DNA of 64,000 nucleotides, taken from the NCBI GenBank assembly GCA_037189525.1, contig JBBCJC010000002.1, positions 288,001 to 352,000 on the forward strand. The letters are read 5' to 3'. Numbering within the stretch: position 1 is the stretch's first letter; every line of letters begins with the position of its first letter. Below are positions 39,001 to 51,000 of the stretch, piece after piece. Made by a program: the position numbers. This stretch comes from Gemmatimonadales bacterium (GTDB taxonomy: Bacteria > Gemmatimonadota > Gemmatimonadetes > Gemmatimonadales > GWC2-71-9).

Positions 39001-42000
39001 TGCTAGCATGCATTGAATGTCTACAAGCTTTGCGAGATATGTAGATGGGAAACGCTGGCACCGCACAAGTATACATCCGGAACGGCATCTATTTCGTGAC
39101 GATCGACGGTGAGGGCATCGTTATGGACCTTCCGGGTGATCGGTACTATGGCCTTAGTGAGTTCGGTGCTATGGTCTGGCAAGCGATTGAACAAGGTCAC
39201 ACGGCTGCTGTGCCATTCCCTGAAAACCAATTTGCCCAGCAAGTGGACGAATGGGTACGGCTCGGCTTGATGACATTTCACGATCGGCCCCAAGTAGAGA
39301 TACCTATACGAAAGGAAGCCGGTACGCCTGCCATTAAGGCGTTTGATGATACTGTAGCACTGCAAGCCTCCTTTTCATGGACAGTGCTATGTCGCCTGTT
39401 TCTCTCTACGTGGCGGGTCAACCGAATACTCCGTCATCAAGGGATATGCGTTGCGTTGAAGCAAATTCAAGAGATTGCCATCGTCGACGAACTTAAAACG
39501 GACCATTGCGAACGACAACTTGGCAAGATCATCCGTACCTATCGCCTAGGGCGGCGCGTACTTAGCCAAGGTCAGGAAGATTGCTTGCCCCGCTCGCTGG
39601 CCCTGGCATATGTCCTCCGTCATGCTGGCATCGAAGCCGAAGTGTGCTTCGGAGTACGGCAGTTCCCGTTCTATGCGCATGCGTGGGTGGAAGCTAATGG
39701 AAGAGTTCTTAACGATGAGATCACAACGATCGGCTCCTACGCGGTTCTAGCACGATTCTGACAGCCTCACTAGGAGTAACGCGTGCATGGTTTTGTTGTG
39801 CGGTATATGAAAGCGATTGATGAACAGCAACCGCCAGTGCTTGACGTTTGCCAGGATGACAGGATTGGCCTAGCTGCAGGAAGGCGCTTCCGACTGCTAG
39901 TGCGGCCACTCCCGACAACACCAGAAGCAGAAGCCGAACGTCAACCGTATGTATTCGGGCACACCGTCGCTGTGTATCAGGGCCGGATAGACAATCGGCG
40001 TGAGATCATCGATCGAATTGGAGACTCACTGCTTGAGCAGGTCGGGGACAGCGAGCTTATTGCACGTGCCTATTCTAAGTGGGGGGCCAACTTCCCTGCT
40101 ATAGTACTGGGGGAGTACTCATTTGCGTTGATCAACCAGCATACAGAACAACTTATTGCCGGAAGAGACAGCCTTGGTATCGGTCATTTGTTCCAATATC
40201 AAGATACGAGCGCTGTCTGGGTCGCATCAAACCTGGAGATTCTGCTCGCCGCACTTCCGAGTCGCCCCTCATTTGACCGTAGTGCGCTGGCTGAATATAT
40301 CGCCACCGGCGGCTTACTCGTATCCGGTCGAACTATCTATACTGGGATCGATGAAGTTCCAGCCGCACATGTTCTAGTTCAGAGTGGAGCTGCCGTTACC
40401 GTTACGCGATACTGGGAGCCTGTTCCGGAATCACAGGCTCGTCTTCGCGGACCTGACGAATATGATGAAGAATTCAGGTCAATCCTATCGGCAGCCGTGA
40501 AGGCGGCTCTCCGATCCAATACACCAGTATGGTCGGACCTTTCGGGTGGACTCGATTCATCTACAGTGACCGCGCTCGCTGCGTCGCTTGATTGCAGTGG
40601 TAACGACGGTATAACAGCATTCTCGATGTCAGCATCGATGACAGCACTAAGCAACGAGAGCCCCTTTCAGGATGATTTCATTGCCCGTTACCCTATTCAA
40701 CAACATCGCCTCGACATTGATGACTATTTGAGCTTTGGGACACCCGAACCGCCATCATGCCACCCGTCTAAAGCGATCATTTATCGGCCGATTCGTCAGG
40801 CTACCGCCGAACTTTTTGCTCAGCATGGCGCGCAGACTCACCTCACTGGCCGTGGTGGCGACAACATCTTTTGCGGCGATGAGTTTCCACCAAGATACCT
40901 TGCCGGGTTGTTACGTGGACTCAAACTGCGCCAATGGATCCGAGAGATAAACGATTGGGCACGTCAAGGAAAACGGAGTCTATGGAATCTTGTGTGGCAT
41001 TGTAGTCGGTCGAGCTTAACGGACTTGTACGCCGGCGAAGCAGACCGCGGAATCGTTCCGACTTGGTTGATCGCTCCGTTTCGTGACCAGGTAACCCAGA
41101 TAGATGAAGGTCAGTGGACGTCAGGATACCGATTGTACAGCGACCCGGGTCGAGAACTTCAGTATCGCTCAATACAAATGACGTCAAGGGTTGTCCGCTT
41201 CATGCCTGTTGGCGATGAGCGGCACCCGTTGCTATACCGGCCCCTTGTAGAATTTGTTCTCGATCTTCCCTGGGAGCACCTCCTTCGACCAGATGAGAAC
41301 CGCATTATCCAGCGACGCGCTCTACGCAACGTCCTTCCAGAAAGCATCCGTCTTCGGACCTCAAAGACCAGTGCGACCCCCGTGTTTCTACGTGGGTTGC
41401 GCCGCCACTGGACAACTGTACGACACTATACCGAGGGACGGCGCCTAGCGGAGCTTGACATCCTTGACCCTATCCCTTTTCACGCCGCGTGCGAGCGCCT
41501 TCGGCATGGGCTGCTAGCAAAGCAGTTTCGCTACCTAGTTGGTGCCTTGACCCTCGAAATCTGGCTGGAGGCGAACTCCAATCCAGTGCGTGACCAAGCT
41601 ACAGCCGGATTCTTCGCCGCCGACCACAGCATAGGCCAAATGAAGTGCATGAACTAAATGACTTGCTCAGCCGGATGCCAGCTCCCCACGGTTCGAGCAT
41701 TTCTTTATCGGGAGCATTTCTCAAGACGAGGTGTATCATGGAACGGAAGCAGAGCGCCCTCAGGCAGATCAACAGCACTGGTGGCAAGACCGAGTTCACG
41801 CCGACGCCGCTCGGCACTGTGTCCGGCACGAGGGTCCTGGGCCTGGATCGCCTCACGGGTACGATTCCTGGTTGTACCGCGTGCGACTTTAACACAGACT
41901 ACGCGAAGGGTGTGTTCGGCTGAAAATCGCTGAACCATACACCTGCAACAAAGGATGACAACGGTGTGCACCCGTTCACTAGCCTCAAGCTAGCCTAGTA

Positions 42001-48000: not shown

Positions 48001-51000
48001 TTTGTCACGAGACGATATCACCGCTGGTCGGCGGGTAGCCGTTGTCAACGAGGCACTGGCACAACGGTATTTTGGTCATACGGACATCGTTGGGCGCTCG
48101 GTGCGCTTGAACATACTCGCGCTCCTGGCTGGCAATGCGGCGGACACGACAAGTTTCGAAGTGGTCGGCATTACCGCAGATGCTAAGAATCACGGGATCC
48201 AAGAGCCGGCAATTCCGGAGTCGTTCGTTCCATACTCACTCGCAAGCCTACCAAATTATGTACTGCTGATCCGAACTTCTGGATCACAGTTGGCGCCGTT
48301 TGACATCACCCGACAGCTGCGAACTGTCGACCGCGGCATCGTAGTCACTGAGAACCGGCGGCTTATCGAGTACCTACAAAAGTTCTCGTACTCCGAACCT
48401 CGTTTCGGCGTCGCCGTCCTCGGTATGTTTGCTAGTACTGCCCTTATCCTGGTGGCTCTTGGAGTGTATGGCGTGGTTGGGTATACGACCTCACGCCGAA
48501 CTCGAGAATTCGGCATCCGGCTTGCTCTTGGTGCGACGCCGGCGACCATTCAAAGACATGTGATCGGCCGTTCCCTCCGCCTAGTTGGGTTTGGTCTCGT
48601 ATTCGGGCTAATCGCCGCATTTGCAGTTACCCAACTCATCAGAAGTCAACTCTGGGGTGTACCGCCACGGGATCCCATGACCTTAGCCATTGCCGTCAGC
48701 GTGGTACTCATCGTGGGAATTGTAGCATGCTGGGCCCCCGCACGCCGGGCAACAAGTATTGATCCGACCGTTACGATGCGGAGCGAATAAATCTTCGGTC
48801 GTGCGGATCATCACTATTGTCAACGAAAATTCATCGGGCCTTGTGGCCTGGCCCGACCGTAGCTCGATGTTCGATCGACGATCGCTCCTTTCGAAGCGAG
48901 ATTCCGTAACGCTGTAGCTCCTTGAAGAAGGTCGTACGGCCCAAGCCGAGAGCTAGTGCCGTACGCTCAGCATTCCAACTATTTGCAGCACAAAAGTCAA
49001 GAAGGCGGCCCCGCATCGTAACAGGTAGTGGTGTTTGTCGAGGCGCAACGCCACTTGGCATGTGAATTACCGCTGTCCCAAGTCCGAGGGATTCGGCCAC
49101 GACCCGACCATCGAGAACTCTCTCATCGGCGAGAAAGACAGCCCGCTCGATCGTACTCCAGAGTTCGCGCACGTTCCCTGGCCACCGGTGCCCGAGCAAC
49201 ACAGGTTCTGCACTTGGCGCCAGCTCGGCACCAGCCGGCGTAGCGAAATAACGGGCCAACAATATGACATCGCCCCAACGCTGGTCGAGAGGCAGCAGCG
49301 TAAGTACCGCACCAACTACCCGCTGCATCAGATCATATCGGACCAACCCATCGGCGACCTTATTACCCACATTCTCCTGGACTGCTGCGATGACGCGGAA
49401 GCGGCTTTGCCGCTTGGTTGTCTCGCCGACTCTACGGAAATTCTTGTTGTCCAAGACTCGAAGAAGCTTGCCCTGCGATTCATAAGGCATACTGCAAAGC
49501 TCATCGAGAAACAGGGTACCATTGTTCGCATCCTCGATCAAGCCAGATACACTTTCGATTGCACCGCTGAACGCCCCTTTGCGATGACCATATAGGGTGC
49601 CCTCGACAAGTTCGCGCGGGATGGCCGCGCAGTTCACATCAACGAGAGCGCCAGGCCGCCCACTCCATTGATGGATTTCCCTTGCAAACAACTCTTTCCC
49701 TGTTCCTGTAGCGCCGATGAGCAGAATCGGCAGGTCGCTTTTGGCAAAGCGTCTCGCATTTGCGACAGCATGTCGTATTTCTGGGGACGTTCCGAGTATC
49801 GTCGTTTCGGCAACTTCCCCGGCAACCTCGCCCGAAATCTCTACATCGCGAGCAGCATGCCGCAACCTGGAACGTTTTCTTGACGACCGTTCCAGACATG
49901 GCGCTCATCACTTTTTGACTAACTCGGGAGGTTGCGGTTCGGTGATCGTTTCCACATCGTCGTCCCTTCTGATGATGGTCGGCGCCAGAAAAAAATACGA
50001 ACGTTGTCTCGATCGACCGACTGTGTATGCCACCGAGCTACGCCCCTCTCGTTGGTAGGAAATGGGGAAACACCTAGTGGTCGGTCAGGACGACTTGGGC
50101 CGCGACGGCATCCTACGTTATGATTCCGTCTGGATCATAGCGTAGGACGCTGTACAACATATCGACGGACCTGAGCCCACCTCCACTTCGACCAGTATTT
50201 GTGTTACCTAGTCTAGGTGGTATTCAATCCGTAGACTTTGTCTGGATCGCATCCTCGATGGCTTTCCCCCGCGACGAGTCGTCTTCCCACTCTCCGCGAG
50301 ACCTTCTAGTAGGCGAGATACTCCTGCCGGAAAATGTCGTGCAGGCAAGACGTACATAACGCGTAAGACATGGGTTTTACTCGAGGGAACCCCAAAGACT
50401 GGAGTGCGGGTGGCGGGCCAGTGACGAAAGCACCAAACGCCATTGTACGACAACGGGTTAGCTCGCGGGGTGCGAGACTTAAAGTTGTAAATGGTTTCAC
50501 TTATGCTAGAGCAGTCGCTATCGATCTTTACGGACGTCCGTGGGCGCTTCGGCGAGGAGCTTGTAAAGCGACGGTCGCGAGATACCCATCAGGCGCCCAG
50601 CCTTGGCTTTGTTGCCATCTGTGGAGCGCATCATCTCTTGGGCTTCCTGGTGCTTGGTTTGACGCGCCTTCGCTTGTACTCAAATCGGCTTGGGAATATC
50701 GGATACTTGGATGGGACGTGGACTCCGCAGTCTGCTAGCGATGTACTGACAAACTGACCGGAGTTGTCTCATGTTTCCGGGCCACGGCGCTGTGCCAAGG
50801 ATCGCAGCAGCAGCAGCAGCAGACAGTACCGGCACAAAGTCGCGCCCCAGCTCGACGAATGCCTCCTGCAAGTACGCTGTCGCGAGTGGGTACTATTTCC
50901 CGATGGCGGTCACGCAGCGACGGCAGGGAACTGTAAGGCACTCCGCACGATAGAACAGTTCTTCGAAAAACAGGCCTTCTGGGAACGGGCTGCCAGATCC

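What a model noticed while it worked through the whole genome (the two positions that open the first line are those of the whole stretch)
39045..48790. Lasso peptide cluster with a 61-aa precursor, an FkbH/HAD-like enzyme and an S9 peptidase on a low-GC island
A low-GC (0.53-0.58) island carries a fused B1/B2 lasso protease (g00999), lasso cyclase (g01000), a 61-aa peptide gene (g01001), a 535-aa FkbH-domain/HAD-IIIC protein (g01002), an 870-aa S9 peptidase (g01003) and an ABC-type permease. I read g01001 as a lasso precursor with an unusually long ~33-aa core (SGTRVLGLD ring, CxxC tail) that is tailored by the FkbH-like enzyme, a tailoring type not known for lasso peptides, and g01003 as a lasso isopeptidase. 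New: a glyceryl/phospho-type modification of a lasso peptide would be a new RiPP tailoring reaction.
Evidence so far: NCBIfam NF033537 lasso B2 75 bits, Asn_synthase 98.5 bits, TIGR01686 FkbH domain 192 bits hmm cover 0.98, Peptidase_S9 93.8 bits. Precursor sequence and Thr at -2 before Ser1, Asp9. A second, canonical lasso cluster (PqqD g02026, B2 g02027, cyclase g02028, precursor g02029 with YxxPxVx3Gx5TE leader and core GGFRAEIFEIFTMRGAL) lies at C3:126385-129059.
(Added by a program. Inside this text positions count along the whole contig: contig position 288,001 is position 1 of the stretch shown here. "Call 12" and the like, gene names such as g00115 and contig names such as C1 are that model's own, and its searches are not shown. 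The text may have been shortened before it was handed on; [...] marks where a part breaks off. The agent that wrote the report below was given it as the finding of a first reader that could run no searches.)

Follow-up and report, generated by a model that had tools for sequence, protein, structure and literature searches.

The report
Lasso peptide cluster on acquired island
A horizontally acquired 14-kb island carries a genuine lasso-peptide gene set whose precursor belongs to a so far undescribed family with a normal-sized 20-residue core, while the neighbouring FkbH-like enzyme and S9 peptidase show no comparative evidence of acting on the peptide.

Summary
A fused B1/B2 protease, a cyclase, a 61-aa precursor, an FkbH-domain protein, an S9 peptidase and an ADOP permease lie co-directionally on a low-GC island. 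The island spans about 38273-52275, is bounded by a 121-bp direct repeat, and is missing from the same site in two relatives.

Sixteen aligned precursors share an invariant PxxLG...LT leader. That puts Thr40 at -2 and gives a 20-aa core with a Thr1-Asp9 ring, not a 33-aa core.

FkbH tailoring has no comparative support:
- 0 of 80 FkbH-relative loci carry a lasso B gene.
- 0 of 97 other lasso-cyclase loci carry an FkbH gene.
- Close FkbH relatives sit among polysaccharide genes, and the island has no carrier protein.

The S9 protein is not an AtxE2-type isopeptidase. It scores 83.6 bits against a cut-off of 400. It belongs to a family of large secreted S9 peptidases but lacks their signal peptide. 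It alone among 120 family members has Cys in place of the catalytic Ser.

Verdict: a new variant of a known kind. The glyceryl-tailoring idea remains possible (about 15-20%) but untested.

The parts
38152..38272 (+). Left copy of the 121-bp direct repeat (3' end of the native ABC-2 permease gene); left island boundary
   Evidence: 103 of 121 bases identical to 52276-52396.
38308..38592 (+). C-terminal fragment of a class I/II aminotransferase at the left edge of the island
   Evidence: PF00155, 21 bits (cut-off 19.7), profile positions 281-359 of 361 only.
39045..39761 (+). Fused B1/B2 lasso leader peptidase (RRE domain about residues 10-75; transglutaminase-like Cys protease 106-238)
   Evidence: NF033537 75.4 bits (cut-off 33). 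Transglut_core3 67.7 bits; PqqD 18.3 bits, below its cut-off. Cys180 and His212 invariant in 11 sequences; model pLDDT 88.2; top PDB matches are lasso B1 proteins 5v1v and 6jx3 (TM-score 0.68-0.69 on the target).
39783..41657 (+). Lasso cyclase (Asn-synthetase-like, ATP-dependent)
   Evidence: Asn_synthase 101 bits, GATase_7 64.4, NF033535 225.3 bits (below that model's cut-off of 525); the SGGLDSS residues are invariant in 26 clade members; always next to a fused B in the close clade.
41738..41923 (+). 61-aa lasso precursor: leader residues 1-41 (PxxLG at 22-26, Thr40 at -2), core residues 42-61 TIPGCTACDFNTDYAKGVFG (Thr1-Asp9 ring predicted)
   Evidence: conserved family. P22, L25, G26, L39 and T40 are invariant in 16 sequences. 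Asp is at core position 9 in 14 and position 8 in 2.
41953..42028 (+). Strong RNA hairpin between the precursor and the FkbH-like gene (possible attenuator or stabiliser; no T-run)
   Evidence: -57.9 kcal/mol, z = -3.66, 0 of 200 shuffles fold as well; no terminator-like site called here.
42069..43676 (+). FkbH-domain / HAD-IIIC protein of the BF1531-like three-domain family (N-domain, HAD, C-terminal domain with invariant Cys456)
   Evidence: TIGR01686 192.3 bits (cut-off 146.65); best PDB match 3slr (E 1.3e-16, 363 columns). D190, D192, D295, D296 and C456 invariant; the most divergent member of its alignment.
43721..46333 (+). S9 (prolyl-oligopeptidase-fold) protein without a signal peptide and with Cys711 (codon 45851-45853) in place of the nucleophile Ser
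   Evidence: Peptidase_S9 94.8 bits. NF033523 83.6 bits (cut-off 400); 119 other family members have Ser at this position (GHSWGG or GGSWGG) and the window alone has GHCWGG; 27 conserved N-terminal columns are missing.
46367..48790 (+). ADOP-family duplicated MacB/FtsX-type permease; candidate exporter or immunity protein
   Evidence: TIGR03434 763 bits (cut-off 622.3); an ADOP gene lies near lasso genes in L101, L105, L121 and G045; 47 ADOP matches in this genome, so the base rate is high.
48831..49865 (-). Sigma-54 activator (AAA+ domain, lid and C-terminal region, no N-terminal sensor domain), convergent with ADOP
   Evidence: Sigma54_activat 178.3 bits, AAA_lid_14 42.5 bits.
50680..51467 (-). 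Broken second sigma-54 activator copy (AAA+ piece 50910-51467, lid piece 50680-50871)
   Evidence: Sigma54_activat 151.8 bits for a 185-aa ORF. AAA_lid_14 28.4 bits in a separate 63-aa ORF.
52276..52396 (+). Right copy of the 121-bp direct repeat; right island boundary
   Evidence: The match to relative G005 continues to 52466, past the repeat.

Best explanation
An island of about 14 kb (about 38273-52275) was inserted at the 3' end of an ABC-2 permease gene. It carries a functional-looking lasso peptide cluster of a rare clade.

Proposed mechanism:
- The N-terminal RRE of the fused B protein binds the leader of the 61-aa precursor through the conserved PxxLG...[D/E]xLT region.
- The Cys180/His212 protease half cuts after Gly41, so Thr40 sits at -2.
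- The Asn-synthetase-like cyclase activates Asp9 of the 20-aa core TIPGCTACDFNTDYAKGVFG and joins it to the amine of Thr1.
- The product is a 9-residue ring threaded by an 11-residue tail.
- The ADOP permease directly downstream is the most plausible export or immunity component.

The FkbH-like enzyme and the S9 protein came in on the same island and may be co-transcribed. Most likely they are neighbours inherited from the donor, or a one-off lineage-specific addition, and not established lasso tailoring or isopeptidase genes.

Shown: the domain families, the catalytic residues, the precursor family and its conserved cut-site frame, the island boundaries, and the lack of co-occurrence. Inferred: the ring chemistry, threading, export by ADOP, and the non-involvement of FkbH and S9.
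For: Core genes:
- B: NF033537 75.4 bits.
- The B model's top PDB matches are lasso B1 proteins 5v1v and 6jx3.
- Cys180 and His212 are invariant in 11 aligned sequences.
- The cyclase has Asn_synthase and GATase domains, and its SGGLDSS residues are invariant in 26 clade members.

Precursor:
- A profile search of 1.84 billion proteins gave 15 hits at E <= 0.001. Fourteen are proteins of 50-83 aa, one of them the window's own.
- Family members lie right after clade cyclases in L101, L102/L103 and L104, and before B in L110.
- P22, L25, G26, L39 and T40 are invariant in 16 sequences. Asp is at core position 9 in 14 and position 8 in 2.

Island:
- A 121-bp direct repeat bounds it.
- G005 and G021 have both flanks in synteny but none of the island genes.
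- GC3 is 0.52-0.59 for B, C, FkbH, S9, ADOP and the sigma-54 genes, against 0.74-0.86 for native genes.

FkbH not linked to lasso genes elsewhere:
- 0 of 80 loci encoding FkbH relatives have a lasso B gene.
- 0 of 97 non-self loci encoding cyclase relatives have an FkbH gene.
- Close relatives (47-48% identity) sit among glycosyltransferase, AsnB and ABC-2 genes. Others sit with acyltransferase_3, cytidylyltransferase and radical SAM genes.
- None of 26 leftover island ORFs has a PP-binding domain.

S9:
- NF033523 83.6 bits against a cut-off of 400.
- AtxE2 structures score only 28 bits.
- Its nearest family is large secreted S9 peptidases, up to 519 bits, against 170 bits for the best lasso-adjacent S9.
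Against: - All six genes are co-directional with gaps of 21, 80, 145, 44 and 33 nt, and share composition. Co-transcription and a shared function therefore cannot be excluded.
- The FkbH-like gene is outside its usual polysaccharide context, keeps all family-invariant residues, and is the most divergent member of its alignment (45.5% mean identity, against 55.9% among the others). That would fit recruitment to a new substrate.
- The S9 protein has lost the signal peptide of its family yet keeps an intact 870-aa frame. That could mean recruitment to a cytoplasmic role.
- The contexts of the closest cyclases (59-62% identity, P0122-P0124) could not be read.
- ADOP genes are very common in this genome (47 matches), so their adjacency to lasso genes may be chance.
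- Thr at core position 1 is not among the residues a 2025 paper lists as seen experimentally (PMC12670498, passages).
Confidence: 0.6

Rival explanations
1. The FkbH-like enzyme is a true tailoring enzyme. It loads a glyceryl (or similar) unit on its invariant Cys456 after HAD-type dephosphorylation. It then transfers the unit directly to a nucleophile of the lasso peptide (Lys16, Thr/Ser/Tyr hydroxyls or a Cys thiol), without a carrier protein.
For: - Operon-like position 145 nt after the precursor, with the same strand and GC3 as B and C.
- Catalytic-type residues are invariant.
- The gene is divergent from its family and outside its usual polysaccharide context.
- Relatives also lack an adjacent carrier protein in the loci examined, so direct transfer to a non-ACP acceptor may be normal for this family (inference).
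Against: - 0 of 97 other lasso-cyclase loci and 0 of 80 FkbH-relative loci show the pairing.
- In 3 other genomes of the phylum sample, an FkbH gene and a B2-like gene lie 5.6-15 kb apart. In each case the FkbH gene sits among glycosyltransferase or other polysaccharide-type genes, several unrelated genes away.
- The conserved core motif (Cys8-Asp9, T/S-D-Y-A-K) is also present in L104 and in profile hits whose contigs could not be read. L101, which has no FkbH gene in its 6 kb, keeps Cys8-Asp9 but not the tail motif. So the motif gives no link to FkbH.
- The predicted N-terminal domain matches the BF1531 N-part, not an RRE fold.
- A strong hairpin separates the gene from the precursor.
Confidence: 0.17
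2. The S9 protein acts on the lasso peptide. It could be a functional analogue of an isopeptidase, a tail or leader trimmer, or an acyl-transfer enzyme that uses a Cys nucleophile.
For: - It has a beta-propeller (PD40) plus an S9 alpha/beta-hydrolase domain, like AtxE2.
- More distant lasso loci (L125-L130, L135, L136, L159, L160) carry S9 genes near the cyclase.
- Loss of the signal peptide puts the protein in the cytoplasm with B and C.
Against: - NF033523 83.6 bits against a cut-off of 400, and only over the catalytic domain.
- It is closer to generic secreted S9 peptidases than to lasso-adjacent ones (519 against 170 bits).
- The nucleophile Ser is replaced by Cys only in this protein, 1 of 120. 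This may equally mean loss of activity.
- The cluster has no GntR, TonB-dependent transporter or sigma/anti-sigma genes, which a review describes for isopeptidase clusters (PMC9266682, passages).
- No close lasso relative has it.
Confidence: 0.12
3. One reading: the core starts at Ser29, with a Ser1-Asp9 ring (SGTRVLGLD) and a 24-residue tail carrying CxxC.
For: Thr27 is at -2 from Ser29, and Asp37 is nine residues on.
Against: - In the family alignment these positions lie in the leader.
- Position 27 is Ala in most relatives, while Thr40 is invariant in 16 of 16.
- An acidic residue follows at +8 or +9 of the later cut in all 16.
- The part after position 41 carries the conserved core motif.
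Confidence: 0.03
4. The island is a decaying mosaic and the cluster is no longer expressed or functional.
For: - The island holds a truncated aminotransferase, a broken sigma-54 activator and no integrase.
- The S9 protein has a changed nucleophile.
Against: - All six main ORFs are intact with their catalytic residues.
- The precursor keeps every family-invariant residue.
Confidence: 0.08

Closest known systems
Lasso peptide clusters with a fused B protein and an ABC-type exporter (microcin J25 / capistruin type; recalled, not tested by name)
   Same: - Fused RRE plus Cys-protease B.
- Asn-synthetase-like cyclase.
- A short precursor with Thr at -2 and an Asp that closes an 8-9-residue ring.
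- A membrane transporter gene downstream.
   Different: - Gene order is B-C-A.
- The leader motif is PxxLG...[D/E]xLT, with a longer spacer than the canonical YxxPxLx3Gx5Tx.
- Core position 1 is Thr here, and T/S/G/E/H/Y across the family.
- The core has a conserved Cys8-Asp9 and a T/S-D-Y-A-K motif.
- The transporter is an ADOP permease with no ATPase gene in the island, not a McjD-type ABC exporter.
AtxE2-family lasso isopeptidases (NF033523; PDB 5txc, 5txe)
   Same: N-terminal beta-propeller and C-terminal S9 alpha/beta-hydrolase domain, with the gene in a lasso neighbourhood.
   Different: - Only 83.6 bits against a cut-off of 400.
- Cys in place of the catalytic Ser.
- No GntR or TonB-dependent transporter context.
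- Nearest relatives are secreted S9 peptidases of about 950-1050 aa.
FkbH / OzmB-type glyceryl-ACP loading enzymes and the BF1531-like FkbH-domain family (TIGR01686; PDB 3slr)
   Same: - TIGR01686 is above its cut-off.
- The HAD DxD motif is present.
- A Cys in the C-terminal domain is invariant.
- The fold of the first 360 residues matches the BF1531 N-part.
   Different: - No carrier protein and no methoxymalonyl-pathway or polyketide genes nearby.
- Relatives lie in polysaccharide clusters.
- Here alone the gene follows a lasso precursor.
Metanodin, a soil-metagenome lasso peptide with Asn at ring position 1 (PMC12670498; abstract and passages read)
   Same: The cut site is assigned from Thr -2 and ring size, and the first ring residue is unconventional.
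   Different: It is a different precursor family and host lineage. No product has been shown for the window's cluster.

Membership tests
Lasso peptide biosynthetic cluster | B2 transglutaminase-like Cys protease with Cys/His | tested here: met
   NF033537 75.4 bits (cut-off 33). Cys180 and His212 invariant in 11 sequences.
Lasso peptide biosynthetic cluster | RRE (B1/PqqD-like) domain, free or fused | tested here: met
   The PqqD Pfam match is only 18.3 bits. The model (pLDDT 88.2) has a three-strand plus helix N-domain whose best PDB matches are lasso B1 proteins 5v1v, 5v1u and 6jx3 (probability 1.00, TM-score on target 0.67-0.69, E 0.005-0.07).
Lasso peptide biosynthetic cluster | ATP-dependent Asn-synthetase-like cyclase | tested here: met
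   Asn_synthase 101 bits and GATase_7 64.4 bits. SGGLDSS residues invariant. NF033535 225.3 bits is below that model's cut-off of 525.
Lasso peptide biosynthetic cluster | Precursor with Thr at -2 and Asp/Glu at core position 7-9 | tested here: met
   Thr40 invariant in 16 of 16. Asp9 in 14 and Asp8 in 2. L110 has Glu9.
Lasso peptide biosynthetic cluster | Threaded macrolactam product | not testable with these tools
   Needs mass spectrometry or NMR of the product.
AtxE2-family lasso isopeptidase (NF033523) | Whole-protein score over the curated cut-off | tested here: not met
   83.6 bits against 400. Only residues 684-855 match, to profile positions 475-637.
AtxE2-family lasso isopeptidase (NF033523) | Ser-His-Asp/Glu triad with a Ser nucleophile (PMC9266682, passage) | tested here: not met
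   GHCWGG in place of GHSWGG: Cys711.
AtxE2-family lasso isopeptidase (NF033523) | Cluster architecture with a GntR regulator, a TonB-dependent transporter and a sigma/anti-sigma pair (PMC9266682, passage) | tested here: not met
   None of these appears among the island ORFs scanned.
FkbH-type glyceryl-ACP loading enzyme | FkbH domain (TIGR01686) over its cut-off, with HAD motifs | tested here: met
   192.3 bits against 146.65. D190, D192, D295 and D296 invariant.
FkbH-type glyceryl-ACP loading enzyme | Dedicated carrier protein (ACP) and downstream pathway genes nearby | tested here: not met
   No PP-binding hit in 26 leftover island ORFs or in the main genes.
ADOP family duplicated permease (TIGR03434) | Score over the cut-off across the full length | tested here: met
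   763 bits against 622.3, residues 4-807.
Integrated genomic island | Flanking direct repeats, deviant composition, absence from relatives | tested here: met
Integrated genomic island | Integrase or recombinase gene | tested here: not met
   No such family among the island ORFs scanned.

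The most novel reading that the evidence does not exclude
The island encodes a lasso peptide with two additions recruited from elsewhere. The first is a carrier-protein-independent FkbH/BF1531-type enzyme, recruited from polysaccharide biosynthesis. It acylates the peptide with a glyceryl-type unit, for instance on Lys16 of the conserved D-Y-A-K motif or on a Cys thiol. 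The second is a cytoplasmic S9-fold enzyme with a Cys nucleophile that acts on the peptide as well. This would be a RiPP tailoring reaction not described for lasso peptides. Searches: one search found a single paper holding both 'lasso peptide' and 'FkbH', once each, seen in the listing only. One search found 0 occurrences of 'glycer' in a 2022 review of lasso modifications.
Probability: 0.15. Interest if true: 0.8.

Novelty: new variant of a known kind. Interest (0 to 1): 0.4.

Why it matters
- The corrected reading defines a small, rare precursor family: 14 short proteins at E <= 0.001 among 1.84 billion representatives searched.
- Its leader is non-canonical. The first ring residue is variable (Thr here). 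Cys8 precedes the ring Asp in the 14 nine-residue-ring members aligned. A T/S-D-Y-A-K tail motif recurs. These features bear on how tolerant B and C enzymes are at core position 1, and they point to a shared target or cofactor site.
- The case also shows that operon-like adjacency on an island is not enough to call a tailoring enzyme. Comparative evidence here is uniformly negative.
- If the FkbH-like enzyme did modify the peptide, it would add acyl or glyceryl transfer from a HAD/FkbH enzyme to the RiPP repertoire.

Tried and rejected
- Searches used the precursor one base out of frame (41739-41924). Their results for the precursor are void. They were redone in frame, which found no Pfam or NCBIfam family.
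- Complex prediction of the FkbH-like protein with the precursor returned 'no answer' (score 0.00, mark 0.32). This is no evidence either way.
- The look-up of sequencing runs listed no RNA holder, so nothing can be said on expression.
- Read laying: run X2 holds contigs about 98% identical to the ADOP gene (46366-48694) and to parts of the flanks. Nothing was laid on B through most of S9. No contig bridges that gap, so absence cannot be claimed.
- A sigma-54 promoter consensus search found no site upstream of B. There were 19 matches window-wide against 23 expected.
- The simple terminator and promoter scan found no more sites than shuffled sequence gave.
- Earlier-findings look-ups returned nothing.
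- I compared by eye the 'longest contig' lengths of the 39 clade cyclases with those of the top 119 FkbH homologues. No shared contig appeared, but this check is weak.
- In L106, L107, L112, L117 and L122 no family precursor reached significance. L112 has a borderline hit, E 0.26.
- P0255, a 2729-aa protein among the 15 profile hits, was left out of the precursor alignment without being examined.

Full report
**What is there.** Between 39045 and 48790 six ORFs run on the + strand with short gaps:

| Gene | Coordinates | Length |
|---|---|---|
| B | 39045-39761 | 238 aa |
| C | 39783-41657 | 624 aa |
| Precursor A | 41738-41923 | 61 aa |
| FkbH-like | 42069-43676 | 535 aa |
| S9 | 43721-46333 | 870 aa |
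| ADOP permease | 46367-48790 | 807 aa |

The precursor has a GAGG upstream of its ATG.

GC is 0.52-0.59 from about 38.5 to 52 kb and 0.62-0.68 outside.

**The island.**
- The last 121 bases of the native ABC-2 permease gene (38152-38272) recur at 52276-52396, with 103 of 121 bases identical.
- Two same-genus genomes (G005, G021) match the left flank up to 38272-38277 and the right flank from about 54.1-54.3 kb. They carry other DNA between, and none of the island proteins gives a tblastn hit there.
- GC3 is 0.52-0.59 for B, C, FkbH, S9, ADOP and both sigma-54 pieces. It is 0.74-0.86 for the native neighbours.
- The island also holds an aminotransferase C-terminal fragment, one sigma-54 activator without a sensor domain, and a broken second copy. 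No integrase was found.
- So all six genes arrived on one segment of about 14 kb with uniform composition. That shows common descent from a donor. It does not show a common function.

**The lasso core set is genuine.**
- B has the B2 domain at residues 106-238. Cys180 and His212 are invariant across 11 aligned relatives.
- The AlphaFold model of B (pLDDT 88.2) has an N-terminal three-strand plus helix domain. Its best PDB matches are lasso B1 proteins bound to leader peptides: 5v1v, 5v1u and 6jx3, with probability 1.00 and TM-score on the target 0.67-0.69. The Foldseek E-values are weak, 0.005-0.07.
- C has GATase and Asn-synthase domains, and its SGGLDSS residues are invariant in 26 clade members.
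- The clade is rare. Among 60 relatives the best non-self cyclase is 30% identical. A clade profile at E <= 1e-90 hit 1 of 400 other genomes sampled from the phylum, G045. In the large protein collection, 39 proteins are 33-62% identical.

**The precursor and its cut site.**
- Small ORFs directly after clade cyclases in L101, L102/L103 and L104 align with the window's peptide. L104 gives tblastn E 2e-7.
- A profile of the four sequences was searched against 1.84 billion proteins. It gave 15 hits at E <= 0.001. Fourteen are proteins of 50-83 aa, one of them the window's own. The fifteenth, P0255 (2729 aa), was left aside unexamined.
- A profile of the 16-sequence alignment also found a member upstream of B in L110, E 1.2e-5.
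- In that alignment P22, L25, G26, L39 and T40 are invariant. The leader reads PxxLG(A)V(AGT)...[D/E]xLT, followed by one residue (G, A or R).
- After that comes a variable first core residue (T, S, G, E or H; Y in L110). Asp is at core position 9 in 14 sequences and position 8 in 2. L110 has Glu9.
- With the rule of Thr at -2 and rings of 7-9 residues (rule as stated in PMC12670498, passages), the window's core is residues 42-61, TIPGCTACDFNTDYAKGVFG, with a Thr1-Asp9 ring.
- Placing the cut one residue earlier would give Gly/Ala at position 1 but a 10-residue ring in most members.
Its 'Thr -2' (Thr27) is Ala in most relatives.
- The 14 nine-residue-ring members aligned keep Cys8 before Asp9, and most carry T/S-D-Y-A-K at core positions 12-16. 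The other Cys positions vary, and two members have Cys8 only. A fixed disulfide pair is therefore not implied.
- PMC12670498 lists Gly, Cys, Ser and Ala as experimentally observed first residues and adds Asn. Thr1 would be unusual. I recall Leu1 for citrulassin, but did not check this here.

**FkbH-like protein.**
- TIGR01686 covers residues 183-501. No Pfam family reaches E 0.01.
- It belongs to a large family of about 545 aa. In one search, 654 proteins had E <= 0.001 among those scored. The best non-self identity is 51%, and sources name the family Gemmatimonadota, Anaerolineae and others.
- The only PDB sequence relative is BF1531 (3slr). The model (pLDDT 79.2) matches the 3slr N-terminal part over 363 columns (E 1.3e-16). 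The N-terminal domain is therefore not an RRE.
- D190, D192, D295, D296 and Cys456 are invariant in 15 sequences, so the enzyme looks active. That Cys456 corresponds to the glyceryl-accepting Cys of FkbH/OzmB is recalled, not tested.

**Co-occurrence tests for FkbH are negative in both directions.**
- From the FkbH side: of 562 confirmed relatives in the genome collection, the best 80 loci were kept, with up to 10 kb on each side. None has a lasso B gene or an S9 relative. Four loci (L001, L045, L053, L066) have weak Asn-synthase hits at 22-30% identity.
- From the lasso side: 78 metagenome loci and 19 non-self relatives' loci with cyclase relatives hold no FkbH gene, 0 of 97. Many of these loci are short.
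- In a 401-genome phylum sample that includes the window's own genome, TIGR01686 occurs in 72 genomes and NF033537 in 136. The B2 tally includes three unpublished genomes, and 21 matches were not listed.
- Apart from the window, the two genes lie on one contig within 16 kb in three genomes: G365 (5.6 kb apart), G341 (7.9 kb) and G376 (15 kb).
- In those three genomes the FkbH gene sits among GT4 glycosyltransferases, an ordinary AsnB, MBOAT, PEP-CTERM, DegT and ABC-2 genes. The B2-like gene is several unrelated genes away, and in two cases it is paired with an NTP_transf_5 gene.
- Other relatives neighbour acyltransferase_3, cytidylyltransferase and radical SAM genes.
- The island has no PP-binding ORF.
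- Points that keep the tailoring idea alive: the operon-like position, the shared composition, the intact catalytic residues, and the window's protein being the most divergent in its alignment (45.5% mean identity, against 55.9% among the rest).
- A strong hairpin (z = -3.66) lies between A and the FkbH-like gene. I recall such hairpins after precursor genes in other lasso clusters. It does not settle read-through.

**S9 protein.**
- NF033523 scores 83.6 bits (cut-off 400) and matches the catalytic domain only.
- AtxE2 structures score 28 bits, well below the best PDB hit, 8wt1 at 56.5 bits.
- Its nearest relatives are 30-36% identical over the full length and about 950-1050 aa long (shorter entries reach about 40% over two-thirds of the query). 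Sources name them prolyl oligopeptidase or S9 family peptidases, and phmmer scores reach 519 bits.
- S9 proteins next to distant lasso cyclases reach at most 170 bits by tblastn (L126 and others). Those proteins themselves score 113-170 bits on NF033523.
- In a 120-sequence alignment, 119 sequences have Ser in the nucleophile motif and the window alone has Cys (GHCWGG, codon TGC at 45851-45853).
- The window's protein also lacks 27 conserved N-terminal columns. In the five relatives whose N-termini were printed, that region looks like a signal peptide.
- The review PMC9266682 (passages) describes isopeptidase clusters as having a Ser triad plus GntR, TonB-dependent transporter and sigma/anti-sigma genes. 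None of these is met here.

**ADOP.**
- ADOP genes lie right after the precursor in L101 (40% identical), before B in L105, and near lasso genes in L121 and G045.
- The genome has 47 ADOP matches, 32 of them over the cut-off, so chance adjacency is not small.
- Export or immunity by ADOP is an inference.

**Verdict.** This is a real, horizontally acquired lasso cluster of a rare clade with a so far undescribed precursor family. FkbH tailoring is unsupported but not excluded, at about 15-20%. The supplements of the cited papers were not consulted.

Noticed in passing
window 38152-38272 and 52276-52396: An imperfect 121-bp direct repeat (85% identical) of the 3' end of the ABC-2 permease gene brackets the island. 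No integrase was found inside.
   Followed up: partly
L114:1087-1368: A carrier protein (PP-binding, 42.8 bits) lies directly after a clade cyclase (38% identical over the part present) in a 1.7-kb metagenome contig. The next ORF looks by eye like a methyltransferase but was not scanned. Some relatives of this lasso clade may use carrier-protein chemistry.
   Followed up: partly
L102:12166-16683: In this locus the precursor is followed by two GT2-type glycosyltransferase genes and a 405-aa gene of unknown family. These could be tailoring genes or an unrelated polysaccharide locus.
   Followed up: no
L185:11923-13502 and L186:12311-16676: B2-like transglutaminase genes lie in the same neighbourhoods as NTP_transf_5 nucleotidyltransferase genes (adjacent in L185, about 3 kb apart in L186). 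They sit within polysaccharide-type neighbourhoods that also hold an FkbH-domain gene. No lasso cyclase was seen nearby.
   Followed up: partly
L101:4577-4783: A 68-aa Cys-rich ORF with no Pfam family lies between the precursor and the ADOP gene in the closest readable relative cluster.
   Followed up: no
L181 (G045:C2), about 9617-9745 on the - strand: The only other clade cyclase in the phylum sample has a canonical 43-aa precursor (YxxPxV...LTL leader, GGGDCGID... core). An ADOP gene lies about 2.4 kb upstream.
   Followed up: partly
window 46366-48694 (run X2): A second metagenome holds contigs about 98% identical to the ADOP gene. That is more similar than its matches to the native flanks, which fits a recently spread segment.
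   Followed up: partly
window 48831-49865 and 50680-51467: One intact-looking sensor-less sigma-54 activator and a broken second copy lie on the opposite strand at the right end of the island. No sigma-54 promoter consensus was found upstream of B.
   Followed up: partly
   Followed up: yes
whole genome G000: There are 47 matches to the ADOP permease family, 32 over the curated cut-off. This is an unusually large paralogous family.
   Followed up: no
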